64,000 bases of DNA from Styela clava (Eukaryota). The stretch's first letter is position 1. Every line of letters starts with the position of its first letter. Position numbers and translations under genes: made by a program. The stretch covers positions 5,208,001 to 5,272,000 of the forward strand of contig NC_135253.1 of the NCBI RefSeq assembly GCF_964204865.1, in the 5' to 3' direction. The notes beneath the pieces are model-generated. The model searched no databases, was not told the DNA's origin, and saw only the letters and a program-made list of their open reading frames with translations. Below are positions 11,915-63,360 of the stretch, piece by piece.

Positions 11915-12847
11915 ATGGGATTTGGAATCTACCCAATAAAATAACACTCTGAATAGCGATAGGCCTACCACTGAAGTGAAAAAAAAGGAGGCCACGGGCC
12001 ATACGGTAGAAGGTCGAGAACAGCACTACTGCACTGTCATATAGCATAACGTAATCTCCAGCTGGCCGGTTGGTTTTCTTCACCTTTCACGATTGGGGGT
12101 AGTTTATAGCGTGAATATTGTCGTGGTTGAGTTAGCTCATTTAATGGATATGATAGGATTTACATATTTATTTCAATCGTTTGATCGAATTATCCCAATT
12201 TTCCTCAAAAACATCTTTACATTGATTTGTTTTGAATAGTCCTGATACTAAAATGCATACAGTAGTTATTTTGACTGCTGAAATTTTGAAATACATTATT
12301 TTCAAATATCATTTGAACTGATTCTTCAGAAAAATGTTTTAATGAGATAATGTGAAAACTCGAAAGGAATAAATCTTGTATTCGATATACTTGCAGTTCT
12401 GGCATGAATTAGGCTATAGTAGTTATTAGTATTTTATATTTTTCAACTATATTCAATTCAAAAACACATTTCAATTCTGGGCCAAAGTTATATCAGATGG
12501 CTTCTAAATGCCAAGGGAAGATTCAGCGCTGTTTCAGAAAAAAATGTTGCGCAATAATCAATTATATACAATTGATGGTTCGTTACCGGTAAATAGTATG
12601 GTTTCATTGATTTGAATATCGAAGTATCAACAAGATATAGATATGCATTTTTAATTTATATACTGAAAGATTAATTTTGATGCATACATTTCCAGTTGAC
12701 TCAGTTCTGCAGTTATGAATAAGATTATATATTTATCTCAATGGGGGATATAAAGCCAATTACTGCATTCAATTCATGACATTCGACTTTTAACTAGTTC
12801 TTTATGCTTTTTGCAGTTGAAATTGATTACAAAAACTTATAAAAATA

Positions 12848-13339
12848 ATGTCAGTGACGTTGCACACAGATCTTGGGGATATAAAAGTTGAACTTCATTG
12901 CGAACAAGCACCGAAGTCATGTGAAAATTTCCTAGCCTTATGTGCTAGTAACTATTATGATTCGTCTTTGTTTCATCGTAATATAAAAGGATTCATGATA
13001 CAGACTGGCGATCCCACAGGTACAGGGAAAGGTGGGACAAGTATATGGAATAGAAAATATGAAGATGAAATTTGCGAATCATTAAGACATAATAGTCGTG
13101 GTGTAATTTCAATGGCAAATAGTGGACCAAATACGAATGGATCACAATTTTTTATTACATATGGAAAACAACCACATTTAGACACAAAATACACAATCAT
13201 AGGTCGTATTATTGACGGACTTGAGATTCTGGACGACCTTGAAAAGCTTCCTGTGGAAGAGAAAACATACAGACCCATGACTGATGTTAGGATACAAAGA
13301 GTAACAATTCATGCTAATCCTATTGCTGATGCATGTTAA
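12848..13339 (+). CDS. PPIL3: Peptidyl-prolyl cis-trans isomerase-like 3 (cyclophilin), single coding exon, 163 aa
   Basis: MSVTLHTDLGDIK...CENFLALCASNYY..FHRNIKGFMIQTGDPTGTGKGG..SMANSGPNTNGSQFFITY..HANPIA is the recognisable PPIL3 sequence; splice acceptor ends at 12815; AATAAA at 13346 and 13607. Confidence 0.97.
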   Translation: MSVTLHTDLGDIKVELHCEQAPKSCENFLALCASNYYDSSLFHRNIKGFMIQTGDPTGTGKGGTSIWNRKYEDEICESLRHNSRGVISMANSGPNTNGSQFFITYGKQPHLDTKYTIIGRIIDGLEILDDLEKLPVEEKTYRPMTDVRIQRVTIHANPIADAC

Positions 13340-30200: not shown

Positions 30201-33200
30201 TAAAGGGCATAAGGAACATGTGATTATATTTATACCAGGGTTTCTCGAACTGGGCCATTGGCTCCTCTAGGGGGCCACGAGGCTTTTCAATGGGGAAAAG
30301 ACTTTCATTAGGTTCCATTCATGAAGACCATAATTAATATAAAATAAATTGATTGTGATTCGTCAGAAAATATGTTAACGACAAACTAGTTATTTTCATC
30401 GAAGAGCAGGGGGGCACAAGAGTTGAGGGTCTTCGGAAGAGAGGCATGGGTCATAAAAGTTTGACAACCACTGATACAAACACTAAATCAGACAGCGAGC
30501 AATAAACTTACCTGTTGACTGTTTTCATCAAATCCAGATTTTAACAATAAAACACAATTACTTGGATCAATAAAACTTTGATTTGATCCAATAAGAAGTG
30601 CAAAGAGCTTCTTCAATTCTTCCATGAAACAAACATTTCTATATCTCTAAAATGAAAAAATATATATATATATAAAGCAGGGAATTGTTACCCAAAATAA
30701 TATGGCTTCAAAAGCCATATTATATACAAACCCAATATATATATATGAAGCATATACTGTTACCAAATATAGGATAGGATTTATATATGAGGAGCCATGG
30801 CCTCTTGTTAATTACCATTCCATGTCGGGTATGGGATTAATTAGTTATTTGTTTTTCGGAAGCACAGACTCAATGGTGGAGGCAGCCGTAACCGACCAGC
30901 AGTTACGTGAACCACCCTACAACAGAGTCTAGCAATCTTCTTACACGTAACCATCCCTGCATGGGATTTTAACCAGTGAACCCACGCAGAGTAATCAGAG
31001 GTGCGGTGGCAAGCGTATTCCTAACGCTTAGCACAATGAATCACACCGCCGCGCCTGGCTTTAACAACAATATTCAAAAAATCAAATGATCTTAATTAAA
31101 TTATTTATTCACTAAAGTTATATCACCCACATAAAAATAAGGTTTGCCAAATTTTCGAAGCACAAGTTTGGCATACCACAGCTCAAATAACTCGACTATA
31201 TTTATCACCATATTGAAATAACTCAGACTGTGGGTACTAAGAATAAGAGACTACAAAGAGATCGGGTACAGGTATTCCCAATAAAAATTTAAGAGACTGA
31301 AGCACAAAAAGAGACTTGGAAAACAGGAGTAGTAGCAATGGTACTATCAATCATTAAAACTTTATGGGGACTTGACATTCACTGTAGGCTTCAAATTCAG
31401 GGACAGATATTTGGAAAGAGGGAGAGCAATAAATTACATCAAAGAAATAAAAATGAATATTTTGGTCTAACCAATTTCCATGTTGATATTTTGAAAAAGT
31501 TTTATTTAGAAATATTACAAAGAAATATGGGCTATCTAAACAGGTATCATACCATAGTTTTAAGCAATATACACCAAAGTAAAAAAAGTTGCAGAATATT
31601 GAAATGAAAAATTTATTTTTTCTCATTTTCTCAAAGTAGCATTTTCAAGTTTCACCTGTTTGGGTTATAGCCCTCTTTTTGTAGATTACTCTCCTTTTGA
31701 AAGTGAAATAATGCTTTACTTACCGCTGAGTCAGGTGATGGCAATTCAGATGAGGATTGATAATGAAGTACCAGGTTTCGAAATATAGGTAAATTGAATA
31801 GTGACTGAATAACTGCACTAAACCAACATGTATTTCCAACGTTTTTTAATCCAGCTGGCCATTCTGGTGCTTAAATAAAAAAAATTGTATGATTAGAATA
31901 GCAACAAAACTTGGAATATATTAAGTATATTACTGTATATAGACATCAGAAAAGTTTTTATGTTATGCAAGTTAAAAAATTAAGGCTCAAATTTAGAAAT
32001 TATTGCTAATGGGAATAAGTCTATTGAGCAATTACTTATTTGCTTCAAAAATGTAAGTGTCTGCATTATCAATACTAATCAGTAATCAGTATAACAGAGA
32101 TGGGATATATGTTCAATACGTTACTGACCTAAAACACGGTTGTGCAACATGTACCCATCACTAGTATATTAGCAATTTGGGACTGCTAGTTATACTAGCA
32201 CAGTAGACATGAAAATTAAATAACAAAATATAGTTTTTTTCATTTTCAAATAAGCTAAAAGCAAGCCAAACGTTTCAAAAAGAAGCCACCTGGATAAAAA
32301 AAATAAATTCTTAACAATAGAAAAAAATGGCTAAAACTAGTATATGTCAGAAACATAACATTGACCATTGCTTGGTCCATGACCTAATATACCTCAATGA
32401 GTAACAAAAATTTTGAGAAATTAAAATCAGACAATCGACAATATATTTTTGCTGCATCTCAATAAATTGGAAGGACATTTCCAGTTATAACTAATGATAC
32501 AGCAGTATTTTTTCCTAAATAAAAAACATTTCAGAAATGTCAGTTTTATTAGGATAGATGCAAAGATGAATAACTAATAAAAAAAACTCACATTTTCTTC
32601 TTCTCTTTGATGGATCAGAAGTGGACTTCAAACCTTTCATGTTGCTTGGAGGAATTGTATTTGACAAATTTACTCCACTGGTTGAAGGGACATCTTTGGA
32701 ACTACTGGGGAATGAAATATAAATTACTTATCAAGGGATGTCCAAATATATTGAATCGATGCAAATTACATACATTTGATATTTGAAAAATTATCAATTT
32801 TAAATACTGGTTACCGTATGCTCCTATGAGTAACCAGAAGAAGACATGGAATTAAAAAATAAAATCACGATGAACATACCCTGATGCTGTTGATTCTAAC
32901 GTTCCACTACACTCCATGCTTAATTTTATGGCTCTCTGTAGTTCAGCATCTTCGGAGTTAAGAATTGATCCCGTCAAATCAATAACTGGATCTAAAAAAC
33001 AAATTTTCAAAAAATCAATTAAATTCTTGGCTAACATACCTAAACGCCAGGAAAGGTTTCATCGATCCACTGCTTGTTACATTTTGTTAGGGTTTAGATA
33101 AGCGGTGTGCAAACTAGGCCTGCGGGCCAATTGCAGCCCACAAGGAAAAATTGTGAAGCCCGCAGAAAAGTGCCAATTTTGAAGGGTGTGCGGCCCGCGA

Positions 33201-43483: not shown

Positions 43484-43570
43484 TCACCATGGTTGAGCCT
43501 TCAAAATCACTCTGGATTTGGGAGTGTAACGAGTGTATCCGAAAACATCCTCGTGAAGATACAATCCCAT
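43484..43570 (-). CDS. NOS: Candidate alternative (distal) terminal exon of NOS: MGLYLHEDVFGYTRYTPKSRVILKAQPW*
   Basis: Strong acceptor ttttgttatttttacag, phase 0; HEDVFG lies at the same offset from the acceptor as HEDIFG in the proximal exon; downstream AATAAA at 42469-42474. Confidence 0.75.
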   Translation of the reverse strand: MGLYLHEDVFGYTRYTPKSRVILKAQPW

Positions 43571-45094
43571 CTGTAAAAATAACAAAAATATACATAACTA
43601 CAATTATCAAAACGAAAGGGAAATGAGGAAACCCTTCTCAAACTTTGTACTGCAGCATTCCTACTGAAATATTTGTCAATCCGGGCATCAGGGGTAACAG
43701 AATTTTCAGATTTTTCATACTTTTTCAAGCAGAAACATTTTTTTATGAATATAAAAAAACACGATGACTTCCCCAATATGCAGAAAAATCATCGGATTTT
43801 AAGAATTTTAGTTAACTTTTAACATAAAACGTTGAAATGATACTAAAGAGAATAGAATTAAGTGGTACAAGCAGAACGTTCGTATTTGTGATCGAACAAT
43901 CGATTGAAATAAAATATATAACATAGAAGCATCCGATGTTAGTGTAAAGTAGATTGCGATGTATGAAACATTTTATTCAACAATATACTAACTAATGTTT
44001 GTGATATTCCATATGGTTGGAAAGAATTGAACTATTATTATAGAAAAATATTTTGCAAGTAAAAAACGTTCTCAATACATCGAATTCCGACTCGCAGTCA
44101 AAATGCGCTGCCCAAGTTTCCGAACATGACTCACGCAAATAACCATTCAATAAATTTCACCAACAAAACAGACAAATACAAACGGAAAAGTTCGTACCAA
44201 ACGAAGAAACAAATATGCTTGAATGCAACAATACATGAACGTAATAATAAACAAACACATATCTGGTAAACAGCATCTCAACAGAACATTTAAATGTAAG
44301 AAATTACTGTCTATTGTTATATGTATGCATTCGCTTGGAACATGCAAATTACATGACACGTCGAATCTAAGACCAACGAATAGATAGTTCACAATGGTCA
44401 TTGATACCGCCATAACGCTTTCCGCTTAATGTTAAATAAAATAGGACAACGGTTCCAAACTTTTTGTTCGTGCGCGTTCAGGGAAAAAACTAATGGCGCA
44501 CTTACACGAAAAAAATTGCAGCCTATAAAAATCCAATTTTGAGATCGTTAATGTGTACTTTATTCCTTTTATAGTTTGTAAACATGTAGGCCTAGCCTAG
44601 AGAATATAGGCTAAACAGCAACTTTTTTTCTTCATCTATGTATTATTTTCCTTTGACAAAAATCACTCATGTTCGCTGAACTCGGTTCCGCATTTAAATT
44701 TTCGGGGCGTACCAGTGGGAACCGCTGGGATAGGATTCATATATTTAACCTGTGGGAAATTTTTTTTAAATGTAGGCGAACCATACAGTAAACCATACAT
44801 ACAGCCCGTTCAGTATTCCAAGTAGGTAATGAAAATAGGCCTCTTGTATGTAAATATTCCCACGGAAATCGAACATGCGGATATTCATTAACATTGCTAA
44901 GGAAAGTCGTAATCGCTCTAATGTGAAAGTCAATAAATATGCGAAAGAACAAATCAATATAAGATTAATTAAGCAGAATGTGTGGAAAAAGAAGTATTAA
45001 AAAGCAAATTATTTCTACTACCCGATTGGGTATATTAAACTTACTACAATAGAAAGAAGTGTAGAAGATAGGTCTTGGGCAAAAGAGGGTTTAA

Positions 45095-45380
45095 AGCCAG
45101 GGGCCAAAAAATTTGCCCACTCAGACTGGCGGGCCACGTAAGTGTGACGTAAAAAGTTTCATTTTATGAACAATATTTACAGTGTTACAAAAGCAAAGTG
45201 GAAAACGATAAGCCTCGTGCCAAAACAAAATTTAATCATAATCTCAACAAATTGCTTGGGCTATTTTTGGCTAAAACATCAAAATTTGCCTTTGGTTTGA
45301 TTGTGGCAGCATCTGGTGGGCCAGATTGAAGTACCCAACGGACCAGATTTGACCCGCGGGCCGTAGTTCGCCCATGTCAG
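45095..45380. mobile_element. hAT MITE, 305-bp family, in the putative NOS proximal 3' UTR
   Basis: Inverted homologue of 48971-49276. Confidence 0.75.
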
Positions 45381-45564
45381 GTTTAAAGACATTGTGTCTT
45401 CATAGCGTTAAAGGTTATAATCGAGCTGTTTGCATCGCACGTTATTTGTAATTTTGTGAAGTGATTAGATAATTACACTAGCACAATCACATGCATGTTG
45501 ATCTATTTCTATTGCTTAATAATTATATTCTATGTCCATTGCTTCCATGCAACTTCTTACGCTT

Positions 45565-48500
45565 TTATTTCTTTTTCGAAGTGACGTGGCGCTGACGCAC
45601 GCTCTTGTTTACTTCGTACGTCCTCAAGGTGACGCCAAAAATATCCTCATGATATAAACCTTGCTCCTGAACATCAATAATACTTCGAAATATCGCATTT
45701 TTTTTTCACAAAATTATAAAACAAAGGTTAAATGAAGGTTAAAGAGTAAGTATAACTCGAATCCAACTGGTAGTTGAGAAGATCATCTTTAAGTCTCGTT
45801 GTTGTGGGTTTTACATTGCTAAAGTCGGAAGGCAGCTCATATTCAGGTACATATTGTGGGCACAATCCAGGGTACTCCCGTAGTATGTGAACTAAGATGG
45901 CGGACACCGGAACGTAGTATGTGTACCAGGTTAGGGTTAGGCCATAATTTTATTCTACAGGAGTACCCAATCAAGTGCACCCCCATGCCTTACACACTCT
46001 GTCAGTGATGATCTTTGACCCTACCATTTTATGTGTTTTGCAAATGTTTATAGCAAACAGATTTTCCATATGGGAAAACTAGATTAGCTTATCCAAATAC
46101 ATCATTTAGTGAAGGGTACCAACATGGTCGTCATTTGCCACATGAAATGTTGAAAATCCGAATAAACATACGGTATCTCACCTTCATTTTAGTCACATGT
46201 TCTCTAGCTTCCTTTTTGCTAATGTTTGCTTTCTTTTCCAAAACTTCCATTAGTGCATTGTTGACGTCATCAGCCATTGTGACGTCACCACATATGTAGA
46301 CGTGTCCGCTGTTCTTTAAAAGCCAGTCGTATGCTAGATCAGCTAATTGTTCTTTCAAAACATGCTGAACATATTGCTGTAAACAAGAAAATATTTTATC
46401 ATTTTATTTACAAGCCATTAACGGCCTAAAAAACGCCGGGATGCACTAAAAACATAATATGATAACCTTGGCGCAATGGTCTAGCATTGTCAGAGACTTT
46501 GCCACACATGTATCGTAAATTGAATTCATTATATACATGCGTAGTAACAAGTATATTGAGTATTATTTTTTACGTAGATTGTCAAAAACCAAACCAACTT
46601 TAGGTTGTCCCGGAAGTCTCGAAAAAGCCGTATGGTATTCAGTGATAGCTCCACAATTCTTAGCCTCCTGTATTTCATCCTTATATAAATGATCTCGATC
46701 TGGGTGACGACAACCGAAAAGTAAAGCAACTTCTCCGACTTGTTTTCCTGCAAAAATATTAGATTTTTGAGTTATATAATCCAGACAGTTAGTTATTCAG
46801 ATGATTTATTTAATTTATTGCAAAAGTTTAACTGAAAGATTGATTAAATGGCAAACTTTACCTTGTTTAATGTCGTACATCCTTTGTTGCCAGAAACTTC
46901 TGAATGGAGCGATTCCTGTTCCCGGACCAATCAATAAACATGGGGCAGAAGAATTTTTCGGAAGATGGAAGCTTGTGGCTCTGCAAAAGACAGAATATAG
47001 AACATAAATCTACTAGGACCACATCATGAATAATGTTATCAGAATAACACTTACGGCCTTATAAAGCAGCAAATATCCGATCCAAGTTCCATTCTATTCA
47101 AATAAGACGAACATACACCGTGACGTTTTGTTCCCGATCCCCCTGAGATGTGATAGAATGACATTTATTTCACTGAAAATCAGCTTTTAAGACTCTTCGA
47201 CTATTCTAGCGTTTAAACAGTCAACTACGAATTTCTTCTCTTGCAGTTGTGGTTTTTGAATTCGACGATGACGTCAAAATATTAAACTACATCTCTAACC
47301 GATATTTTTAATGTTTATCAAAGAATTAATAACATGCTTTGAAAGAACAAATTTTATCCATTCTTGTCCAATCCACATTTGTTGGACATTTTGGGGTACT
47401 CCCGTAGTTAGGGTAGGCCATAATTTTTTCCCGATTTTCCTTATTTTAGTTCTATTACGAGTTTTTAAGCTCTTTCTGTATTTGATAATACAGTCAATAC
47501 AGTAATACATACAATTTTTCTTACCTTGGGTATTGTAGCTAACAATAGCAACTGTGCAATGAACTTCGTTTGGATATACATCAGTAGAACTACTTATTGA
47601 ATAATATCTACATTGCAAAGGACTGAGTTGACTCAAGAGAAGAGATGCTTCTACTCGCACCGAAGGAAATTCCGCTAAAACTTCTGCCAAGTTTGGAAGA
47701 AAATGAAACTTCCATTCTTCGTATTCGGACTTTCCCTGAATTATAATTAAAAAGGTTGTTATGTAGCAATCAGAGAAGCGTGGTTCATAGAAAATATTTT
47801 ATTTTCGCGGACATAGGTTACCTAATTAGAATGAAATGAAGTAAATGAGCATAGATCACAATGAAGTAACAAGCTAATTGTGGGAAAAGTGTGGAACAAG
47901 TGTGGTAAAAGCGGGAAAAGTGTGGAACAAGTTGAAGCAGTGCGGAAAAACTGGAGTGCGGAACGAGTCAGAAAGATGTAGAACAGTTAGAAGTTTGTTA
48001 ACAAGTGGGAGGAATGTGAAACAAGTTGTAGAAGTCTGGTACAAGTGTGAAACAAATGGGAGAAATGTAGAACAAGTGTGTTAAAGTGTGGCACAACATT
48101 TTTGAGACATTCATTCTGAAGCACTCACAATTAAATTTTAAACTAGCAAATAGTTGTGTACACGTTGTCCACCATTCAACGTTGCAGTTGATAAATATAC
48201 ACGTATATTTGACGCTCTTAGAAAACGCTTTTTTTAAAACCATACAAAACTGTACATTTGTGTGAATAATACTATACCAGGTATGTGTATTAAGTTTGCT
48301 ACATCAGGCATATTTTGTGATAGTGAGGTAAATATACATGTTCATACACTCCACGAAAATGCACTAAATTTATACTGCAATGTATAATGAGGATATACAT
48401 GGCTAACTGTTATTACATAATAGATAAATACCCAATGTGTATCCCAGGCAAAAAATAGGCTATATTCGATTACGTAGTCCGATTAAATATTCAAGCGAAC

Positions 48501-51500
48501 TATTGCGCATTGGATTACCAGTCCAAGTCGAGGTTACATGTTCAAGATGGATTTGTGTGGTGATATTTTGTCATGAATACTGATGCAAGCTTTCTGAAAG
48601 AAGAGTCTCTACTCGCTCCACTTGTACTACACTTATCGCACTTGCACCACGCTAGAAACACTAGTACCACCACACATGCATCAATTTTCTGGGTTGGGAT
48701 ATATATTAAATCTTGGATGATTGGTTAGTGATGAACATATAGAAGTGGTTTCATGGTAAGTACCGGTTTAGGACAGATATAATACTCAACTTTTTGTTTA
48801 AATGTACCAAACAATTTTTTTTTGTGTGTGGGGGGGGGGGCCAAGGTTTATTAGACTAATACGTTGCGTTCTATCATTTATTTGTTATTAAAAACTTTAA
48901 ATCGCCCATGTCGTGCAAGAGGTAATCATCATCATATCACCAAGCACTAAAACGGTATATTAGTCTAGCTCAGACATAGGCAAAGTACTGCCCGCGGACC
49001 ATCTCTGGCCCGTTGGGTAATTCAATCTGACCCGCCTGATGCTGTCACAACCAAACTTAAATCAAATTTTTATGTTTTAGCTAAAAATAGCTCAAACATT
49101 TTGTTGAGATTGCGTTTAAATTTCGATTTGGGCACGAGACTATTGTTTTCCATCTTTGCTTTGTAACACTGAAAATATTGTTCATAATATTTAACTTTTA
49201 CGTTACACTTACATGGTCCGCCAGACTAGGTGGGCAAAATTTTTGGCCCCTGGTTCAAAAACCTTGCTCCCTCCTGGTCTAGCTGGTGCTATACAATGTG
49301 TCATAGAATACTTGATCACAGAAAGCAAGTCACACAAAATTGACACACAAAATTTATCACTCACATCTCCACTATTCTGTGTAAAGTCAGCAGAAAGGAG
49401 GACGCAGCAATATGAACTTAAAAATTTTCTTCAATTAAACAAACGAATGGTAAACCTTTACCATTATATACAACACCAGCTTTTTAAGGTTTGAATAAAT
49501 ACTTGCAATGATATAACAATAAAGCATAGGCATAATAATTTAATTATTAATTATACCTTATTATGCACATGCTTTCCAGACATGTGTTTGTGCTAAGAGT
49601 AGATAGGAGATTTGTATGTAAATATTATATTCGGTGGCCTGACAAAAGGCGCGTACGAATTTGAGGTTCAAAGTACCAATCCGGCAACAATTAGGTGAGG
49701 ATTACGTTTTATGTTTAAGATAATCCTTTGGCGAAACCTCATTTTCGAATATCTGTATATGTATCGATTGATCAGATTTGAAAAATATAATCCGGATACT
49801 ATGATGAACTCGGTACGTTCAATAACTTGATTGATTCAAGAACTATTAGTTTGAACTATTGTTCGTATGAAAAAGAAAAAATTCCAACCTCTGAAAGCTC
49901 TAGCAGTCTTGCTTTCTCTTTGTCATCTGCAGCGCAATCGGCAAATATTTTCAATAGTTGTGGAGTAGGACAAGTTGTAATGTCGAAATAACGCTCGAAT
50001 GCAGTTCTCAATGTACAGGCAGGAAGACGTTTGTCTGGCAGCCAGTTGCTAATAACACCTGAAAAGAGATGAAAAAATTCCGAATATTTTCAACAATTTA
50101 ATATTTACAACCTTGAACTGATGCAGTAATAAACAATGAAAATTCATAGGAGTTACTCAAACATGGTTACGAACCCTAACTCAAAATAGAAAAACTATCA
50201 CTGTTAGTGTTTAAGTGACACTATTTGCTATTGAAGAATCGGTGATGGCCCAGTGGTTAAATCTTAAACACATCACTCAGTGTGTAATCAATTGGGTAGA
50301 CGATGCCGAACCGGAAAGATTTCGGTTCCTCAAAAAATAAGGTAGCTCCCCACATATCATATCAGTAACAGAATGTGCGTAGCCTTGTTAAGTGCAAAAA
50401 GCGTTTAACTGCGCGTCGTATAAAAAAAATAAAATAAACATTTCTAGCAAATTGTTACCAAGAGGCGTCGTTCGTTGTTCAAATATCTGTAGTTGAATCA
50501 ATGCTTTTTCATCCACTTTATCGTGAAGTCTCTCTAGAATCCCTGAGAAGATTAACAATAAAATAAGCACAAATATGGTAAACTTTTTCATTGAAATATA
50601 AATAGTTTAGCAATATAACATACGGTCAACAATTTCAGTTTGGTTACAGGGGTATATTCCGATGTGATCGCCTGGTAGATATTTGATTTCAGAAGAACTT
50701 GAAGAATCGAATTCAACAAGGATGGTGCCGCGACTGAAAAAGAAAATATCGTATAAATAGTGTTATCAATTAATAAATAAACTTTAGTCTTTTTTGGACA
50801 CGTTTAGTGGACATAACGATCGTTTCAAAATTTTGTTGTTATTGTTATTTGTCTCCATCATTTTTAAAAAATCGCTTTTCTCTTCGAATACTGGACCAAT
50901 TGCTTGGAAATTTTCAGTGGTTGAAGATAAAATTTTTCTTCAGAAGGCTATTACTTTTTTTTCGCTATGACGTCATCAAAATTATTGCCATTGGGTGGCG
51001 CTACGTGCCCATATATTTGAGCATAGCTCTCTTGTTTCGGTATATAAATACATTGCATTCAGCAGTTTAATAAGAACCAACTTGGTCCGGTAATCTAAAT
51101 AGTCTTCTGGTACAAGTTGGGACCAGAATCGTTAGCAATCTATGCCCGATCTATCATAGTTGTAGTAGTGTATACCTCATGTCAACTAACTATATAGGGC
51201 TGGGCATTTTTGAATACCCTGTGATTTCAGAATCGAATCGAATAATTTTTTCGAATCGAATCGAATCTCGAATACTTGGGACAATATAATTGTAAGCGAC
51301 TTTTCTAGAGTAATAGGTCCTCTTGCCACAGAATTATTGAAGACATAGAATACATCACTCAGTTGGATTACTGAGCGTTCACACACAATAACAAACACGT
51401 TTTATCAATAACTCAGTACAGAAATAATGTTATACGTTAGAATTGCGTTAAAAAATTATGACTTCAATGAACAAAAAATGAGGAATTCACCTAGATCATT

Positions 51501-54500
51501 GGGTGAAAGAAAAAATAAGATGGCGGCGATTCGAAATTTAGCTTTGAACCGATTCGAATAATTTACTATTCGATTCGATGCCCAGCACTACCCCTAACCC
51601 ATGCCTACCGTCCTACTACCGTACCGATACAGGTGCGGCATTAGGTTAATACTTCATTTACATATCGTGTGGTATCGTTTTTTTTTCGCCTGGTCACCAA
51701 CTGATGCTATTTCGATTTTTTTTTTATATAACTTGCATAGAAAAAAGTCTTCTTCAAACCGCGCCCAGGCGGTTCCTAACATCTGTGTTTATCGGCCTAC
51801 AGCTAGAGTTTTTCGACATTGAGTTGCGTTTATAATATGCCTAGTCATATTATTAAGCGATATTATCATTATAATCTGTATTTCTGCTTACTTTAATTCC
51901 TTGTACATGTACGCATGTACGCTTTTTTTCTCGTTATGTATTATCTCTTTATTATTTCTATGCCTTTATTTACATTTAAATCAATTTGTACATCGATTCC
52001 TCTATGATATAAATTAAATATAGGAATCTGAATCCGACAGAAAACGAGGCAAATGTGATTAATTCAATTTGTTCCGTTAATGTTATTATTTAGAAAGTAT
52101 AGCCAATAATTAAATTGATATGAAATATGGTTACTCACTCCTGTTCTCCAGATTGCAAGTTTGTTCGCTTCTTCAATTTACAGCCGGAAACCTTTTTCTT
52201 ATGAAAGTTGGAGAGCCCTAGAATTTTTTTTTAATTGCATGATGTTCCATTCGTCAAAATTATGTGATCTAATTTCATCCTTAAAATACCTTCCAACAAC
52301 GCTGGTTCCTCAACATCTTCCGGATCAACAGCTATCCGGAATTTATTTGGACTCCAACTCCTGTCTTGACCAGCTAATGACGCACTTGCAGCTTCCACAG
52401 AGACATCTTCACCAACGCAGAATGTTTCACAAGCAATCTAAAAAAATAACAATCCATAAAGTGAAGTTTTTTTCATAAAGTTTTTTTTTTCATTTTTGAC
52501 TATTTTGGAGTAGTTCTCTTACTTGAAAAACTTTCTTAGCCCAATTTCTGAAACTCTCTTCTTGTCCGCATAATTCGTCGCCTTCTCCAATTTCAAGCAA
52601 TCTATCTCCACTCAGTTCTCCGAGTAAAGTGTCGATAGCGTGAGCAAATGCACAAAAATGTGGGTAAGCTCTCGATCCAAGACCAAATACTGCAAATCTG
52701 TGGAACAATTGGTTAAATGTAATTGTGTACCAGGTAAATGTATAAAAATGACCATCGCTTGCTACCCCTTGTACCACATTATTAACCATTTGTACTAAAT
52801 GTACCACTTGTATCCCATATACCAATTGTATCACATATACCACTTGCACCCCATATATCAATTTTACTAAATGTACCACTTGTACCACATACACTAATTG
52901 TACCACATGTACCACCAGTACTACATGTACCCTTGGTAAATGGTATTTTTGAGACATCGCTTCTGTGGTATGATATTGAATAACAAAAATGAAAAGATAA
53001 ACTTTGACAACGCAGAAATGTTGAAAAATGAAAACCAATCAAGAGTTATTTATCATCATAATCCCCAAAGAACACAATTCCAATGTAAAGTTTTAAAAAT
53101 TCAAATACTCGGTTCCTGATAAAGTTGTCATTTACGCTGCAAGATAACGGCCTAAGCTAAATTTCAATTGAAAAAGTAAAAGTAATTTACAACCAACCAA
53201 CAGCATTGCTCACCGTAAATTAGCAAGAAGACCGGTAGCTTCACCAATATCGGGGAGATCAATCGGTTCCATTGCAACTGATGATCGACGTCTTACAGAA
53301 GGTGTTACATTGTGAATACTGGTGAATCTCGTTTTGTCAGTTCCCAAATTGTCTCTGAAATAAAAGAATAAAAAGAAATGAAAACTGAAGTTTTTTAAAA
53401 AATAATCAAATACGGAGAAAAAAAGGAAAAGACTCTCTAAATTAAATACTTGAACATAAATTTGAATTTTCTGAACTATTAGACCAATTAATATTTAACG
53501 TGAAAATATCTGTTTTTGACTTCCTGATGATAATTTCTCAGTATTGATAATTATATAAAATATGACTGGAAAGAATCGAATTTCAAATAATTTTGAAAGT
53601 ATTTGCATTTTACATTGTAGATTTCAGAACGAAAAGATCAATGTATATGTCTATATGAATATTACTATAAATTGTTATGTTTGACATTACCTATTATAAA
53701 ATAATTTTATATTCTATATTAGAATATGTACACGTTCAGAAGTGATTCGCCATAGAAAGTTAATCAGTCTTATTTACTAACAAATTTATAACATTGTTGG
53801 GTGGCAGTAAATCTAAACCTTCATTTGGCAATTGTTTTATAATCAATGGGAAATAGCAAAAACTTTATTAATCGATAATCGAAACAATCTGTAATTAGAA
53901 TCAGAATTGCTTGATTTCAGTGATTTTGTCGATATGACAAAAACTTGAGCGATACTTCAATTCTACTGGAATGTGTCAACACCTATGCTTCCAGGAAGCC
54001 TCTGTTCAAGTTACATTTGCCGACCAAATAGAAATGGAATTTGTCAGGTTGGCATAGTGCATATATCATTTTCAGATATTGGGTATATGCACACAAAACC
54101 TTATCCCTGTGATCTCAACATCTTTCAAAAAGTAATATTATGTACATTTAGATACAGGTTAACAAAATCTCTTCTATTTACCTATTTAAATCTACAACAG
54201 ATAATAAAAGAACTAAATCAATTGATATTTAATTGCATTATACAAATTTTCAGTATAATGCATCAATTACAACCGTTACAACATAAAACTAGTTTTCGAA
54301 GAGGTAGAATTAACTTCTGCAGAGCCTAATTCGATGAAAAATGTAACAATTATGTAAAATCAAGCTCAAACAAATTCGAAAACACTTTATCAAAAAATAA
54401 ATCACCAAATAAATTAAACCATAGAAAATATACTAAAATAAAAAAAATCAAAACCACCAAATTGCATATTTGTTCTGAATTAGCTTTAAATAAAATAACA

Positions 54501-57500
54501 AGTTTGCAAAAATCAAAACACAAACAATTATTTTTCACTCAATTGGTCACTGACGTACGGAGCGGTGGAAGAGCGTTTGAGAAGTCGTTGCATTCGTGGT
54601 TTCCTGGTTAATTAAATATCTTTTGACATTAAATACGGTTGAGAAAAATAGGCCAAGGTTTTTTCCTAAGAGAGAAAAGCCGATAACATTATTACATGAC
54701 CCATTCCTATGAAAAGTAATGACTTCTGGCCCGTTAGAGCATTTTAGCAAGGACTAAGACTATTGTAGTGATAGCAAACTACAGATGTTGAATGATAATA
54801 TTAAAAATAAATGGTGGGTCAACTATACAGTCTAAGAAAATCGTTTTATTTACCTCATACAGTATATGAAATATCTGATGTGCAACTAAATATATTTATC
54901 AAATAACTTACTGGCTTTCTTCTGGTTTTGATAGCTCCACTAGTGTCTGGCCTAGATTCTGAAATAAAAAATAATATTGTTACAAAAGCTGCAATAAATA
55001 AAAAATTAGTAATAGGTTTTGAACAAAATTTTAATTTTTTCAAAATCTAAACCTATATCTTGATACTATGCCACGTTCTTGTGCAATATTCCCCCATATC
55101 ATAGTTTTGGTATTTATGCTGGAAAATCAACATAAAACTAACCAATTTCAATATTGATGCTTCCACAACAGTTTTGATCTCATATACTAACTTGGAATGA
55201 ATATTTTCTTATAATATGAGCGATTTTTACGAATTATAAATAAAAATATTCAAACTTTTGTAACTTACTACTCCATTTTCAGGGGGATCCCCGTTTCCAA
55301 AAGTACTTGTGACAACCAACAAAAGAGTTTCATGTTCCAAGTGTACAATATCATAATCGTCCATGCAGACAACCTATTAGAAAAAAAAGTTTGAGTCTTT
55401 GTAACAACTGGGCCAGGGTTCCTCAAACTGTCTTGCTGTATTACTTGTCTTTTTATTTATTTAATGGGTTGCATTGATTAAATCCCCAATGAAGATGCGT
55501 TAAAATTGGGTATTTTTATTGAAAAGCAGGGGACATGTGTTGAAAGTATTTGCGGGCGGATGGTATCATGAGGATTTGAGAACCACTAAACTACACGTTT
55601 GTCAATTTTTCCAAGTGTAGGTGATATAGACAAGTTTTCACTTATGCCAAGTTTTTACTGATTATTGAGAGAGAATTTGAGGATTTGTCAAGTCTCTAAT
55701 ATCAAACCGGACTACAAAATATCTACAGGATAGGGACGCCGCGTAAGAAAATACATTTATTAGGATACGTCAAAAAGTTTGCCAACAAAATTTTCAATGT
55801 TTCAACGTATTTAATGAGCAATTTGTAATTTAACTCAACCCCGGAGTAAACTTGTTTTGGTACTCCTGAAGTATGCGCACCAAGATGTCGCATAACCTGA
55901 ACCCTAACCTGGTACACAACCTGAGTTCAGGTTGTGCGCCATCTTGGTGCGCATACTTCAGGAGGTCCCTTGTTTTAATAAAATTAAAATTCATATTGCA
56001 GTTTTTAGTATAATAATTAAGGATTATTTCTCTGCATTAATGTTCCATTTAAAAAAAAATCCAATTTCAATTATCAGAATTTTCGAAAAAAGCTTTTTTT
56101 TATTGAATCACAAATGTATCCAATTTTGAAGAACTAAATTATTTATACATTTTCAGCCTTCTCTACAAGTGGAATGTCCATTTCCGCATCAAAGACTTAA
56201 ATGGAGACTTTCTAAATTGATTTTACACTGACCATAAAGGAATTTCGAATAACAAAGCGGTTTTCACGGCCCACATGGCGCAATCCCCATTCCAACTATT
56301 CTAATCTTGGTTTTATATATTCAGATAGATACCTTTGCAGCAAAAGCATGGTTGAAAATGTCACACAAAGTCTTCGCATATTCCAATGATTTTCCTGTTT
56401 CAGAAGCATACAAAATTGTTGCTTTCACACGATTCGCCATTGCCTTTCCCATCATGGATGACATAATTAGCACGGACCTGAAATAAGTATCAAGAAAATG
56501 TATCATAACTGGAGTATATGGAAATATTGAATAGTAACAGATATTACGAGTCACGAAATAGTTTCGAACGAGTATAAACATGGCGCATTTATTTCAATTT
56601 TAGTTATATTACGAGTTCGGGGACTAGCCAGATGACTCCCGTAGTATTTGTTCCTTCGGGAGTACCAGTTATTCAATATGCAGTTTAGCGAATTTTGTTT
56701 CCGATTTCTTATCATTGGGAATTTAAAAAATATCAGTGAATTCGAGTACACATCAAATATTAATATGCAATTTTATACCGTATAAGTTGCATGGACATTG
56801 CACACAATACACATATCATATCACATATTGCAAGGTCATACGCACTAACTCAGAAGTAAAGGAGACTCATCTTCGAGTAAGATTGCGAGCGACAACTAAT
56901 ATGCCAAGAGATACTGAAACTACAAATGTACGGAACAGCTTTGCATCTAATTAAAATGAAAAACAGCAAATAAAAAGACACTTTTGGGTATTTCTTCCAT
57001 ACCTAATTTAAAAAAAAAATCTTCGAGCTTCGAGGTGAATTTTAAATGTTAATCTGTTTACATAGCAGTACGACATATGTTCCCAATCAAAGATAAATTT
57101 GAAAGGTATTTTTATTAAAACGACTCACTTTGCAAGCTCTTTGAATCTGATGGCTTTCTTTACTTTGTTGACTTTTCCCTTCCACACATGATATTTCCAT
57201 GGATCAGGCTATAAAAATTATCACATTTATATACGTGCCATATAAGGCAAAACATACACGGTGAGATCGTGCTTAGCATATACACAGCTGGTTCATACTT
57301 CGAAGTATATTTGGAATAAGGCATAATATTTTCATTCCCGTTTTTTTATGAACTTATGAGATCAATTCGTACCTGTATAACACGCTAAACCGGTAACCGG
57401 TAAAATTGTGTTGTCTGCTTATAAGATAACTTTCATTTAACCATTGCATGCCGCGTGCTTGCAAGACGCTTATATGTTGATTCCGAACAATTTCTATGCA

Positions 57501-60500
57501 AGTCTAAGGACCGGGTATAGGAGTACGTATTAATTCAATAAATTGAAGAAGTGGTTAAATATTCCCATAGACGACATACTTGTAACTGGACGACCGACTG
57601 TGGCTTGCGTAGGGGGAAAAAATCCTATCCTTGTATATTCTGACAAGAAAGGCCGCTATATTTTGTGAACCCGATTTCATGATACTCTCTCTACGTGGTG
57701 GCAACCGCGGGCCATACGCATCCAGGTAACAACTCGAGATTCTGATTTATAATTACGATGACCAAAGAGTGAATCCAACTCATTAATTACCTAAAACCTT
57801 TGGGGATGTGAGAGATATACATGCGAGAAATATATATGCAAATGAGCGCATAATTTACAACATTTGTTAAATATTTTTATCGATCCGTTAGTCATTGGTA
57901 ATGCCAATCGACATTAGTGTAGAAATCAAGTCGTTAGTCCTATGCGTGCGACCATGTAATTTAATTTCGGACCTGGCTGGAAGATTTTTAATATAAATTG
58001 ATACTCGGCTAAGTGCCAGACCTTCGAATTAATTTATCAACCTTTTATCTTGGCTTGCACTCAATATTTTTAACATTTGTAAAATGATAGCCCCGTCCAT
58101 AGAAGGCTATTGGGCTGCCAAATGGACGGTAATTTTAATTTTGGAACGGCATCTACATGAGGCATGTAATGCCCATCGAATAAAATCAGTGTTTTATTTA
58201 AAAAGTTGTTCGCTAGATGATTCCACATATCTAGCCTAAATGAAAAATGGTGTTAAATGCACCTAATACCCCATACCTGATATTTACAAGACGGATGAAG
58301 AATATAGTTCAAAACTTCCTGGTGGAATATGGGAGTAATGCTTCCAGAAATGGGCGGGGTTAACCAGACCCAATCACCAGGGCAACCGCCACGTAGCTTC
58401 AATTCATTGGCGTAATGCTTCATGAACGACTGTGTCGCAGAATGATGATCCATTATCGTAACTCTGTCACTCTAAATTATAAAAATAAATGTCATATTGA
58501 ATGTTAATTCATAATACAGGTAACTAGTTCATTGCGCAGCACAAGCTAATAATCTTCTCCAAGATGTAAGAGGTTAAACAAGTTACACTCAGATCGAAAA
58601 ATGCCGAGAGTATTAACGGGTCCTGTTGCACCACCAACATCTAATGTTACTCAATACATATGCCAGGATAAGTTATGTTAGGATATGGTGTCTTCAAGAT
58701 GACAAGATAAAGGTGGGAAAATAACTTAACCTTCCCTACTATTAACATACGAAAACAGATCAAGAAATTAGTGACGGCACAATAATAGAACAGTACATAT
58801 CCATGCATTGAAATTGAAACGTCGGCATCATAAACACTATGTGTCGGGAACCATTGTTAGAACGAAGAGGATTTTCCCACCGCGATGGGGGCTATATTGT
58901 TACCCGAAAATAAAACGTTTCCCGTCGCCTCGTCTTGCGTGACCAAATTGCGTGCGTAATTGACAAACCGCGCAGTGACGCACTCTCCCAGTGCGTCTTC
59001 AACGGATTGCGTTAAACAATGCTCTGTAACACCTGTAACGACTTTGAGTCGAAGACTGTAATCTTGGCATTAAACATGATTAGTTATCATCGGCCATGAA
59101 CGAAATAATACCAAATGCGCATTTTATCAATTGACCATGCCTGGCAAAGTATAATGAACAACTTTGTTTTGATTGCGCAAACCGATCATAAATTGCGTTT
59201 AGGTCACTAAGGCGAAGTAACGATATACCGACTTCTATTATTTCCGAGTTAAAATTAGTACACTTCATGTGGATAAATCTGGCATCATTGAATTACGTAT
59301 ACTCCATCGGTGTAAACAAGCGAGAGAAAACCGGGAGAATTGACGAAAAGGGTGATTGCACGACATCTAGGTAACTATATCATAATAAATCAGGTTTTAG
59401 AAGCGATCGAAATGCCACACATTTTAAATTAAAAATCAGTTCGTGACTTCGTAACGAGGTTCCTAATTAAAAATTCCAATTCTCGAATTGTAAAGTTAAG
59501 TTGTTTCTGAATCGAAAATAAACCTCAACCAAATATGAGAACTAGATAATGGGTACTACAAAAATCTCTAAATCACACTCTGCTAAATGAAATAGATTTA
59601 TATTTTGAAAGACGATAATCTCACGAAGGCACGCATTAACCTTTCTGGTCGATCGTGAAATTATTTTAGTATGAAAGGAGGAAAGTAGCCCTTTACCTGG
59701 AAATGGTAATTAAAATGCCATTAGATTGAGTAAATAGGTTGATCCAATTTACAAGTAAACCGCTATTTTTGCATTTTGAATCTGAGGGTTAGACAATGCA
59801 CGAAGTACGATCGCCGTAATTGCATATTTCGTTATGAAAGTGAAGTATTTCGTTTGTTTTATAATTATTATTTCATAAAGGTATTTTGGTATTATAATTA
59901 ACAAAAGTGGAGACGAACAGAGCAATACGATTAGGCGAAGCAATGTATAACAAACAATGACAATGTATAACCGTTTTGAAAAAGTGATGCGATGAATTAT
60001 ATACCTGGTAACTATGTAAAACGGCAACGTTGAATTCCACCAATGCAATATCCTTCCACAACGATGACGTGTTCCTTGTATCTAAATTCATCTTTTCTGC
60101 TACATCCTGAAACACAAATGTAAATATTACTGAATAGTTCAAACAATACAATGTATACTGTTTTTGTTGCTGTATTCTAAAAAGGGACAATGTCGATTCA
60201 TTCATAATTGAGGTCATAGGCGGATTGAGAGGGTGTCTTAAAATTATCGTTCACCACTTGTAACACTTGTACCACATGTCCCGGTTTTACTACTCACAGA
60301 AATCATCCGGAGAAGACACGAAGATTTTAATAGTACAAAACAAATTACGCGCGCTCCTTGTATGAAATTATTTTGTTTAGATTTGAAAAAATCTTGAAAG
60401 CGTTTTATAAGTTTCAGATCAGATGGTGCCTGGTTCCGAGAGAAGCCAAGCTATCAGCAAAACGATGTATAAAACTAGAATCTCGTGGTAACTTATAACT

Positions 60501-63360
60501 TATATCTTCCCACCTGCAGTACGTTGTACCGAGCAACATCACAAAGATCTCTCGCTATTTCTGTTCCCATAAACCAACCGTTAAATGGTGCGGCAGGAAA
60601 TTCAAGACCACCAATGTCCAGCAAAACATTTGAGACAGCAGGAACTGCACACCATTTGTATCCAAGTTCTTCAAACCATTTGAACCTTGTTATAGATAAA
60701 GTAAAGATATGAATTTTTTTTTATTTCCGCTGTAGATCTGGGAAGCAAGGTAATAGAAGTAACAAAAGCACAAAGAAAATTATATACAAAGTTTACTTCA
60801 GTAGCGTGCACCTAACTTTTCCTTTTTGTATCTGTACGCGTCAGTAGATCCGTATATACACGGATTGCGGATATATATATATATATTAAGTAGTTAAAAG
60901 GTCTTGCATCACAATTTCCCAAATTTTATTTTATTTACAGTTTACAGGTTGCAAGACATCTGTACCCAACGAAATAATATACAACGTAAAATTGCCAAGG
61001 ATTTACACGAGGGGCGGGCAAGTTTTTTAAACCAGGGGCCAAATTTTGCCTACATAGACTGGAGGGCCATGCGTGACGTCAAAAGTTCCCTTTTATGAAC
61101 AATATTTACATTGTTATGAAAGCAAAAGTGGAAAACAATAAGCCTTGTGCCAGAACTAAATTTAATCGCAATCTCAACAAATTCTTTGAGCTATTTTTAG
61201 CTAAAACATCCCAATTTGGTTTTAGTTTGGTTGTGGCAGCATCAGGCGGGCCAGATCGAATTAGCCAACGGGCCGGATTTGGCCCGCGGGCCGTAGTTTG
61301 CCCATGTCAATTTTATACGAAGTGTTATAGTATATGCCAAGGTGTTAAGATACGATTTCTAATAGTACAAATCAATAACTCAATGCGATAAACCTACCTG
61401 GGATGACGCAATTTTACTTCAAGAGCCAAGTCCGGTGGAATTTCGTATATATCAGGATCTTCTCCATTAGCTTGCAGTACCAAAGGTAAGATATCAAATC
61501 TACCAAATTTTGGCTTCCAACCAAGCTTGATACAAACCTAAAATAAAAGAAATAGTAATTATAAATTTAGTAGGCTATGCCAGATCGAAACGATCACAGT
61601 ATTTGGAATCATAGGAACTCTAAAATTACTTCTTATGTGGAGCCTTCTTCGGAGAGTATGTCTTAATACGTTTTTAAAAGAGACGACTCAAGACAAGGCC
61701 ATGCGCACTCACTCGGAAGCAAAGGAATCCCATATCCAAATCCAATTACCAACAAACATTGAAATGGCATTGAAATAATATAGCAATATGGCGGTGCATA
61801 ACGCGATTGCAAATATTCAAAACTGAAGCAACAATCATCAAATTGATCAGGAAAACAATCTATAAAGTATTGAATTTCACGCTAGAGTTTTTAAAACTAG
61901 GAATTGAAACGGAGAAATAGAATAGTGAGCGTATCTTTGTAAAATGAAAAAGTTTTAAAATGCGCCCTCTTGGCCGTTGGCTGCCATTTTTTTACGATGT
62001 TGTTTAACTGAATTACCTCTACGTTATTTTTTAAGAAAAACGGCGATTTCAAATATTTCCAATTTGATACTATTTTATCGAATTATTATACGATAAAAAC
62101 TTTCCGCCTTTTCTTACAAACGGCGCCCGTTACACGAGCTGACATACGCTGGATACGCCACTGAGTGAGTGTGAGTGAGAGGCATAAATTGAGTAGTAAA
62201 TTTGACAATATCTTAATTCAAGTCACGACAAGGTAAATTAATAACAAAACTCTGACATAATGTAATTGAAGTACAATGTGTATATCATACTTATATACAT
62301 AGTGAATATCGGATGACATTAGGGACATGTTTACACGACCACGAAACTAGAATATATTCATTCCAACCATGCTTGGCCGCATGTGTTAAATTAATTAAAA
62401 TGAGAATATTATTCACGAATATCAAACAAATGTGATTAATTGGGAAATAATGATTATGAACTGATAATCAAACAACTCAATATTTAATCGACATGATTAA
62501 TTGATTTTATATACAGCACTTAGCATATTGGAGGAACCTACAACTAACCATCAAAGAATTCAAAGAACTAACTGTTGCCTAATAGTTTTTTCCCTCGATC
62601 GATCAAATATTTGTATCAAAATTTGTACGCAGGGGTACGTGCGCGACAGCCGTCTTGCATGCAAATTTGACGATATAGCTGATTTTAGAGAAAAATGCTA
62701 AATGTCTGTGCATGACTTTAAACTTCCGGCATGAAAACCCATTTAAGAAGTGAGTTATAAATATAATTCTGCACAAATACATGTATGGGATTTAAAATCG
62801 CGTGCGGTTTTCTATTTAATTCTTAAAGTTGTCAAATTTGAAAATCAACATCAAACAGCGTATTTTCATTTGCATCGAATTGCTTTAAAGATGTTGATGT
62901 AGCTTTTTCGTTAAACGTTGTTTCGATGATATTCTGCACCGAGACTTCTCTAGATTCCGAGTATTTCAAAAACTCGAACAAAAAACTCCAATACGTATGA
63001 CAGATTTGGAATAACGGGCTCTATTTAACTCTCTGAAATTCTTATTATTTAGCAATAAACAATATAATACTGAAATGTATAGTAGAAAAAAATGGGACCT
63101 CCAGAAGTATGCGCACCATCCTGCACATCCTGAACATAGTATGTGAGTACCGGTTTGGATTCAGGTTGTGCGACATCTCGGTGCGCATACTTCTGGAGCC
63201 CCAAAATATGAAATGCACCTCCGTAAATTCCACATTTGCAGGATCACCAATTATGCTTCCGTCAGGTTGCCCGTATCCTGCATATCTTATATACTGAGAA
63301 CTCCAGACTCGGAAATCTTTCTTGTAATCCGTTCTTTGAGGAAAAAAGGTGATGCAAGAC
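45565..63360 (-). CDS. NOS: Nitric oxide synthase, constitutive-type (autoinhibitory loop present); 5' exons lie beyond the window
   Basis: Exons 5'->3': 63219-63360 ([14 protein letters not shown]), 61398-61537, 60514-60685, 60005-60106, 58277-58471 (GGCPGDWVW), 57129-57208 and 56333-56477 (CaM site, YASETGKS), 55269-55373 ([12 protein letters not shown]), 54912-54958, 54559-54603, 53214-53354, 52523-52697 ([15 protein letters not shown]), 52290-52437, 52139-52217, 50624-50733, 50459-50542, 49889-50058, 47525-47735 (RYYSISSS), 47055-47142, 46862-46980 ([16 protein letters not shown]), 46599-46747, 46182-46376 (HVYICGD), 45565-45666 ([12 protein letters not shown]). All GT-AG and in phase. 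Confidence 0.97.
45870..45968. mobile_element. Complete GGG-TIR mini-MITE with TTAGGG units
   Basis: GGGTACTCCCGTAG ... CTACAGGAGTACCC; flanks AATCCA / AATCAA. Confidence 0.75.
47880..48090. repeat. Degenerate gtggaacaagt minisatellite
   Basis: Recurrent gt(g/a)gaacaagt units; complementary units at about 48615-48675 and 60255-60280. Confidence 0.6.
48971..49276. mobile_element. hAT MITE, 305-bp family, perfect TSD
   Basis: GTCTAGCT at 48963-48970 and 49277-49284; CAG...CTG ends. Confidence 0.85.
50794..51036 (+). mobile_element. HINE-like element, family 2
   Basis: Same termini and core; 3' hairpin GAGC-ata-GCTC followed by tcttgTT. Confidence 0.7.
51195..51590. mobile_element. hAT(Ac)-like MITE
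   Basis: TAGGGCTGGGCAT / ATGCCCAGCACTA ends with (TCGAA)n subterminal repeats. Confidence 0.7.
52765..52935. repeat. 9/18-bp minisatellite (tgtaccac-like) in a NOS intron
   Basis: Repeated tgtaccac(a/t) units, which account for the Val-rich spurious ORF. Confidence 0.75.
55858..55969. mobile_element. Palindromic GGG-TIR MITE
   Basis: About 40-bp arms (ctcctgaagtatgcgcaccaagatg / catcttggtgcgcatacttcaggag), internal accctaacc, 6-bp duplication TTGTTT. Confidence 0.8.
61009..61310. mobile_element. hAT MITE, 305-bp family
   Basis: Inverted homologue of 48971-49276, CpG-rich. Confidence 0.8.
63094..63202. mobile_element. Palindromic GGG-TIR MITE 16 nt from a NOS splice donor
   Basis: gggacctccagaagtatgcgcacc ... 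ggtgcgcatacttctggagcccc. Confidence 0.8.

What the first reader, a model, noticed from the sequence alone, without database searches (positions are those of the whole stretch)
60514..60685. Remodelled L-arginine pocket in the NOS oxygenase domain
Seen: the exon reads [13 protein letters not shown]...[16 protein letters not shown], versus vertebrate KWY(G/A)LPAVxNMLL...FxGWYMxTEIGxR(D/N)xCD. The rat nNOS Y562 equivalent is Cys (60649-60651), Y588 is Phe (60571-60573), M570 is Val, and one residue is missing between the Glu and the Arg (exon is 172 nt; I recall 175 nt in vertebrates). Established: Y588 hydrogen-bonds the substrate carboxylate and Y562 belongs to the same network; E592 and W587 bind the guanidinium; R596 contacts H4B. 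E592, W587, P565, V567, R596 and D597 are retained and the rest of the gene is intact. Inference: guanidinium binding is kept but carboxylate recognition is weakened, so substrate preference (for example agmatine or modified arginines), inhibitor sensitivity or coupling may differ.
Basis: partly seen in the sequence, partly recalled or inferred. Interest (0 to 1): 0.7.

Follow-up and report, generated by a model that had tools for sequence, protein, structure and literature searches.

The report
Sea-squirt NO synthase pocket variant
The single, intact, spliced nitric oxide synthase gene of the sea squirt Styela clava lacks two tyrosines and one spacer residue of the arginine pocket, but most of this is shared with other sea squirts, so it is likely an ordinary arginine-using enzyme that is predicted to grip arginine and arginine-like inhibitors more loosely.

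Summary
The 172-nt exon (60514-60685, minus) has Cys, Val and Phe at rat nNOS 562, 570 and 588 and one residue fewer between Glu592 and Arg596. Five of five RNA-type runs laid (three studies) carry it spliced with the same protein. The gene is the Styela clava NOS1-like gene, the only NOS oxygenase locus found in the genome. The remodelling is mostly not special to this animal. Phe588 plus the deletion occur in all 4 members of the ascidian clade examined (Styela, Phallusia, Ciona savignyi, one unnamed). Phe588 recurs in oysters and the deletion in an annelid; among 149 parsed cluster representatives 9 have Phe588 and 24 the deletion. Only Cys562 is unique (0 of 336 other proteins). The heme Cys, Trp587, Glu592, Gln478, Arg481, Arg596, Asp597 and pterin residues are kept, and the model matches nNOS (TM 0.93-0.96). 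Ciona larvae make NOS-inhibitor-sensitive NO. Best reading: an arginine-using NOS with a likely weaker carboxylate grip; a switch to agmatine is unlikely. No kinetics were found for any ascidian NOS. The scan's earlier notes hold no match on other DNA.

The parts
60514..60685 (-). NOS oxygenase exon with the substrate-pocket strand and helix (aa 562-618 of XP_039248117; rat nNOS 551-608), 172 nt
   Evidence: spliced in RNA-type contigs
60649..60651 (-). Cys (TGT) at rat Tyr562; found in no other NOS examined
   Evidence: Cys in 0 of 336 parsed non-Styela proteins; Tyr in Phallusia, C. savignyi and P0004
60625..60627 (-). Val at rat Met570 (Ile in the other three ascidian-clade proteins and in oyster)
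60571..60573 (-). Phe (TTT) at rat Tyr588; ascidian-wide, also in oysters
60550..60561 (-). Glu592-Ile-Ala-Arg596: two-residue spacer instead of three, inside a predicted continuous helix
   Evidence: shared with Phallusia, C. savignyi, Owenia
60547..60549 (-). Asp597 kept (second carboxylate partner)
63216..63359 (-). Upstream oxygenase exon with Gln478 and Arg481 kept and two Styela-only changes, Asn476Ser (63300-63302) and Leu479Tyr (63291-63293)
61397..61534 (-). Oxygenase exon just before the pocket exon
60005..60106 (-). Oxygenase exon just after the pocket exon; joined to it in RNA-type contigs
58277..58471 (-). Oxygenase exon with pterin and dimer residues (Trp676, Trp678, Phe691, His692, Glu694, Tyr706 kept; Val680Thr)
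43487..63359 (-). In-window part of the NOS gene (aa 468-1442: second half of the oxygenase, calmodulin site, FMN, FAD and NADPH domains); exons for the PDZ domain, zinc cysteines and heme cysteine lie 3.7-14 kb beyond the window's right end

Best explanation
This exon belongs to the single, intact, spliced neuronal-type NO synthase of Styela clava, which likely still turns L-arginine into NO but is predicted to hold the arginine carboxylate more loosely than mammalian NOS. Shown: Tyr588 to Phe and the one-residue deletion are shared across the ascidian NOS clade, so they are old; Tyr562 to Cys (one base, TAT to TGT) is so far seen only in Styela. Inferred mechanism: arginine's guanidinium is still clamped over the heme by Glu592 and Trp587; the carboxylate loses the Tyr588 hydroxyl and leans on Asp597, Gln478 and water; the deletion falls inside the helix that carries Glu592, Arg596 and Asp597 and likely tightens it without moving these residues off the pocket face (removal of a helix bulge is my untested guess); electrons come as usual from NADPH through FAD and FMN under calmodulin control, with pterin. 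Predicted result: higher Kd and Km for L-arginine and NOHA and weaker inhibition by amino-acid inhibitors (L-NNA, L-NAME) relative to small guanidinium-site inhibitors, with the same chemistry.
For: Gene intact and single: 7 oxygenase matches, all at one locus; exons map in frame; spliced in 5 of 5 RNA-type runs from 3 studies. Core residues kept. Phe588 plus short spacer in 4 of 4 members of a clade with SH-aLRT 100 (33 hand-picked rows, quick tree). Among 149 parsed of 150 listed 50%-representatives: short spacer 24, Phe588 9, both 6; position 562 not Tyr in 22 of 147. No excess decay: Styela departs from conserved columns at 12 of 155 oxygenase and 14 of 142 reductase sites, against 13/155 and 11/142 (Phallusia), 10/151 and 11/138 (C. 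savignyi). Model pLDDT 92, helix 298-306 continuous, TM 0.93-0.96 and rmsd 1.7 A to nNOS heme domains. Ciona has one NOS gene (PMC10342570 table) and the NOS inhibitor TRIM lowers larval nitrite from 3.14 to 1.14 nmol/mg (PMC4109947). In Herdmania the arginase inhibitor nor-NOHA acts like an NO donor and L-NAME at 1-10 mM opposes it (PMC3760835). Tyr588 mutation strongly alters binding and oxidation (PMC6120233). H-NOX domains, the usual NO receptors, are in the genome.
Against: No kinetic data for any ascidian NOS were found. The species with NO measurements (Ciona intestinalis/robusta, Herdmania) are not the ones whose pocket sequence I hold (C. savignyi, Phallusia); sharing is inferred. They also keep, or probably keep, Tyr562, so they do not test the Styela double change. 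The two papers on the Tyr588 mutants were not held; their size of effect is recalled only. A residue kept for the whole ascidian lineage may be fully compensated, in which case affinity is normal. Added L-arginine had no effect in Herdmania larvae. The folds give no side-chain coordinates here and follow their alignment.
Confidence: 0.55

Rival explanations
1. Fully compensated: the changes are neutral lineage variation and the enzyme binds and turns over L-arginine like mammalian nNOS; the tightened helix repositions Asp597, or the nearby Leu479Tyr fills the space left by Tyr562.
For: Phe588 and the deletion persist across the ascidian clade and recur independently (at least 2 and 3 changes on the tree); 562 tolerates His and Phe; Leu479Tyr and Asn476Ser are Styela-only and flank Gln478; L-NAME is active on Herdmania larvae.
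Against: Tyr588 is kept in 140 of 149 representatives and its mutation strongly alters binding in nNOS. Oyster larvae respond to SMIS, aminoguanidine and 7-nitroindazole but not to L-NAME or L-NNA (PMC7686737), and oyster NOS has Phe588 (Saccostrea, not the species tested); uptake could explain this too, and scallop NOS, whose residue I did not see, was also unaffected by 0.01 mM L-NAME.
Confidence: 0.3
2. Poorly coupled or weakened enzyme: losing both tyrosines leaves Styela NOS unsaturated at cellular arginine, so that it makes little NO and more superoxide or peroxide.
For: Cys562 with Phe588 was seen in no other protein; only 1 of 336 has Phe588 with any non-Tyr 562; four further Styela-only changes lie in conserved oxygenase columns.
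Against: No excess of departures from consensus and no long branch; single copy, expressed, no amino-acid variation in the exon among 5 runs; pterin and heme residues intact.
Confidence: 0.09
3. Substrate shift: the pocket now accepts or prefers a guanidine without a carboxylate (agmatine or an arginine ester or amide) as NO source.
For: Both tyrosine hydroxyls at the carboxylate end are gone while the guanidinium clamp is kept.
Against: Asp597, Gln478, Arg481 and Arg603 are kept; arginase inhibition mimics NO donors in an ascidian; the amino-acid end of the substrate is needed to steady the heme-pterin contact (PMC6120233); recalled, not read: the nNOS Tyr588Phe mutant binds arginine more weakly but gains no NO formation from plain guanidines.
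Confidence: 0.05
4. Assembly or annotation artefact.
For: None found.
Against: Same peptide in 5 of 5 RNA-type runs and 7 of 7 database records; two of the changes are shared with other ascidians.
Confidence: 0.01

Closest known systems
Styela clava NOS1-like, RefSeq XP_039248117 / 116 / 118
   Same: It is this protein: 100% identity over the exon and all exons map to the locus.
   Different: The record is an automatic annotation; I found no paper on its pocket or activity.
Other ascidian NOS (Phallusia mammillata A0A6F9DN53, Ciona savignyi H2ZG23)
   Same: Phe588, two-residue spacer, branched residue at 570, all catalytic residues.
   Different: They keep Tyr562, Asn476, Leu479 and Val680; Styela has Cys, Ser, Tyr and Thr.
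Rat neuronal NOS (PDB 8t1j, 1om4 family)
   Same: PDZ, zinc cysteines, heme Cys415, Trp587, Glu592, Arg596, Asp597, calmodulin site, FMN/FAD/NADPH domains; model TM 0.93-0.96.
   Different: Tyr562, Met570, Tyr588 and a three-residue spacer.
Engineered rat nNOS Tyr588Phe (Sato 2001, Giroud 2010; cited in PMC6120233)
   Same: Same substitution; mutations there strongly alter substrate binding and oxidation.
   Different: Made in a mammalian background with Tyr562 and the long spacer; the papers themselves were not held.
Oyster NOS (Saccostrea cucullata) and Owenia fusiformis NOS
   Same: Oyster has Phe588 and Ile570; Owenia has the short spacer.
   Different: Each has only one of the two ascidian traits and lies on a separate branch.

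Membership tests
Animal neuronal-type NO synthase | Oxygenase (PF02898) fused to FMN, FAD and NADPH domains, with N-terminal PDZ | tested here: met
   Pfam domains of P0001; alignment to 8t1j over residues 9-1430
Animal neuronal-type NO synthase | Heme-thiolate Cys415 with Trp409 and Arg414; zinc Cys326 and Cys331 | tested here: met
Animal neuronal-type NO synthase | Guanidinium clamp Glu592, Trp587 and pocket roof Pro565, Val567, Phe584 | tested here: met
Animal neuronal-type NO synthase | Pterin-site residues Ser334, Met336, Arg596, Trp676, Trp678, Phe691, His692 | tested here: met
Animal neuronal-type NO synthase | Calmodulin-binding helix and flavin/NADPH motifs | tested here: met
   aligned windows (sequence only)
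Animal neuronal-type NO synthase | NOS oxygenase fold | tested here: met
Animal neuronal-type NO synthase | [quoted passage not shown] | not testable with these tools
   Indirect only, from other ascidians
Mammalian-type carboxylate pocket (a typical trait, not family-defining) | Tyr588, Tyr562 and three-residue Glu-Arg spacer | tested here: not met
   also not met in other ascidian, oyster and annelid NOS
Helix-bulge (pi-helix) loss as the basis of the deletion | Long-spacer NOS has a bulge at 593-595 that short-spacer NOS lacks | tested here: inconclusive
   Both models show one continuous 9-residue helix there; the output does not separate helix types; no paper found

The most novel reading that the evidence does not exclude
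Ascidian NOS is a natural carboxylate-blind NO synthase, and the Styela enzyme, having lost both tyrosines, makes NO from a decarboxylated or modified guanidine such as agmatine as well as or better than from L-arginine.
Probability: 0.05. Interest if true: 0.75.

Novelty: new variant of a known kind. Interest (0 to 1): 0.3.

Why it matters
Most of what is claimed about NO in ascidian and oyster metamorphosis rests on mammalian NOS inhibitors, with results that differ by compound. If the natural Tyr588Phe weakens binding of amino-acid inhibitors, it offers one simple, testable reason for part of that scatter, and it makes NO output more sensitive to arginine supply and arginase. The variants are also natural tests of which pocket residues NOS needs. 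It is a refinement within a well-known enzyme family, not a new system.

Tried and rejected
Assembly error: rejected. A Styela-specific origin for Phe588 and the deletion: rejected. Pseudogene or relaxed selection: no sign (protein-level only, no dN/dS). A second, canonical NOS copy: none found (best candidates only). Raw DNA reads (X15) gave depth about 1 on the exon, and the run of a second organism (X14) did not cover it, so neither informs; no holder is on record as RNA in the run list. A third homologue search aimed at more tunicates returned, among named proteins, only Phallusia besides Styela (best 120 of 408); Ciona robusta, Herdmania, Halocynthia, Botryllus and other Styela species were not obtained. 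Of 10 short-spacer or Phe588 representatives looked up only 1 had a name (Owenia), so the taxa of the rest are unknown. The control fold could not show a helix bulge. Four papers were not held. Searches for Tyr562/Tyr341 function gave only docking papers, seen as listings; PMC6451115 passages held nothing on these residues. I did not run a complex prediction: an NOS dimer would pass by likeness to solved structures. Earlier scan notes concerned other NOS genes and did not bear on this one.

Full report
Observation. Against full-length rat nNOS (PDB 8t1j) it spans residues 551-608 with one gap: 562 is Cys (TGT, 60649-60651), 570 Val, 588 Phe (TTT, 60571-60573), and two residues instead of three separate Glu592 from Arg596; Trp587, Glu592, Pro565, Val567, Arg596, Asp597, Asp600 and Arg603 are kept. 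Contigs of five RNA-type runs from three studies cover the exon without gaps and join it to the next exon across the 407-nt intron (5 of 5 such runs laid; 9 were listed). Four of the five differ at two bases, both synonymous. The bases are real.

What it is. The exon peptide is identical to the Styela clava NOS1-like protein XP_039248117, and all 7 records of that cluster carry it. The 1442-residue protein has PDZ, oxygenase, calmodulin, FMN, FAD and NADPH parts and maps exon by exon from 77986 (beyond the window, fetched) to 43487. A search of the genome with PF02898 gave 7 matches, all at this locus. Heme, zinc and pterin residues are all present. An AlphaFold2 model of the oxygenase (53-sequence alignment, pLDDT 92) matches nNOS heme domains with TM 0.93-0.96 and rmsd about 1.7 A; the deletion lies in a continuous predicted helix, as does the longer spacer in a vertebrate control model.

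How unusual are the changes. Among the best 120 of 1108 hits (nearly all vertebrate), 2 of 119 non-Styela proteins have Phe588 and the short spacer: Phallusia mammillata and Ciona savignyi. An unnamed 1377-residue protein (P0004) has both too. In a quick maximum-likelihood tree of 33 hand-picked NOS proteins these three and Styela form one clade (SH-aLRT 100), all four with both traits; Phe588 needs at least 2 changes on the tree (ascidians, oysters) and the short spacer at least 3. Among the best 150 of 797 representatives of 50% clusters, 149 could be parsed: 24 have the short spacer, 9 Phe588, 6 both; position 562 was read in 147 and is Tyr in 125, His 10, Phe 10, Asn 1, Ile 1, never Cys; position 570 is Val in 3. 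This list is ranked by likeness to the Styela exon, so it over-represents such variants, and most entries have no taxon. Over all 336 parsed of 350 distinct non-Styela proteins held (many redundant), Cys562 occurs in none. Styela also alone has Asn476Ser and Leu479Tyr beside Gln478, and Val680Thr. Its overall departure from conserved columns (12 of 155 oxygenase, 14 of 142 reductase) is like that of the other ascidians and not concentrated in the oxygenase. The solved NOS chains whose alignments I saw (mouse iNOS, rat nNOS, Bacillus and Geobacillus) keep both tyrosines and the long spacer.

Literature. PMC6120233 (passages): the Tyr588 hydroxyl bonds the alpha-carboxyl of arginine and NOHA, mutations strongly alter binding and oxidation, and the amino-acid end steadies the heme-pterin contact; its two sources on Tyr588 were not held, and my memory that Tyr588Phe stays active with weaker binding and gains no activity on plain guanidines is recall. 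PMC10343299 (passages): Asp597 also bonds the carboxylate. PMC10342570 (passages and section 5): one NOS gene in Ciona robusta and C. savignyi; NO signals and NADPH-diaphorase in Styela plicata, S. rustica and Phallusia nigra. PMC4109947 (passages): TRIM lowers nitrite in Ciona larvae from 3.14 to 1.14 nmol/mg. PMC8999111 (passages): NO signal co-locates with NOS in Ciona larvae. [quoted passage not shown] PMC7686737 (passages): oyster larvae respond to SMIS, aminoguanidine and 7-nitroindazole but not L-NAME or L-NNA; the authors leave binding or uptake open. PMC3724850 (passages): scallop NOS was unaffected by 0.01 mM L-NAME; I did not see its residue 588, so this neither supports nor isolates the Phe588 idea. 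PMC6499831 (passages): pi-helices are thought to arise by single-residue insertion. I found no paper that describes these ascidian pocket residues or ascidian NOS kinetics; the library lacks most subscription journals, including the main NOS evolution papers, and no supplements were read.

Mechanism. Shown: intact gene, kept catalytic core, ascidian-wide Phe588 and deletion, Styela-only Cys562. From established NOS chemistry: Glu592 and Trp587 hold the guanidinium over the heme, pterin and the flavin domains supply electrons. Inferred: loss of the Tyr588 hydroxyl, and in Styela of Tyr562, leaves Asp597, Gln478 and water to hold the carboxylate, so arginine, NOHA and amino-acid inhibitors bind more weakly while small guanidinium-site inhibitors do not; the deletion tightens the helix while Glu, Arg and Asp stay on one face (now i, i+3, i+4), which would explain why exactly this position is lost repeatedly. 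I put 0.55 on this, 0.30 on full compensation, 0.09 on a poorly coupled enzyme, 0.05 on a substrate shift and 0.01 on artefact.

Verdict. A real and correctly described feature of a known gene. It is a member of the animal neuronal-type NOS family on every sequence and fold feature tested; activity could not be tested. The pocket is a lineage variant that I did not find described, with one modest, testable consequence for inhibitor studies. Interest 0.3.

Noticed in passing
window 45565-45666 (-) and 43487-43570 (-): The NOS gene has two alternative last exons: a canonical one (isoforms X1, X3) and a diverged copy 2 kb downstream (isoform X2) that keeps the flavin-shielding Phe motif but has a different regulatory tail. 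Use of the second exon was not checked in reads.
   Followed up: partly
window 54558-54602 (-): A 15-codon exon in the FMN-domain insert is absent from isoform X3, at about the place of the muscle-type insert of mammalian nNOS.
   Followed up: partly
window 63291-63302 (-): Asn476Ser and Leu479Tyr flank Gln478 and occur in Styela but not in the other ascidians; Tyr479 might fill the space left by Tyr562. No coordinates to test it.
   Followed up: partly
P0008, P0010 (oyster NOS): Oyster NOS has Phe588 with Ile570, the same pair as in ascidians, on a separate branch; oyster larvae do not respond to L-NAME or L-NNA.
   Followed up: partly
window 61040-61310: High-copy interspersed repeat in the intron upstream of the pocket exon; very deep and diverged coverage in DNA and RNA-type runs.
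   Followed up: no
window 12827-13336 (+): Single-exon 170-codon frame that looks like a cyclophilin-type peptidyl-prolyl isomerase (family recalled, not searched).
   Followed up: no
window about 18270-31870 (-): Exons of what looks like a ubiquitin-specific protease gene downstream of NOS (recalled from motifs, not searched).
   Followed up: no
window 8957-9385 (-): Fragment resembling a non-LTR retrotransposon reverse-transcriptase region (recalled, not searched).
   Followed up: no
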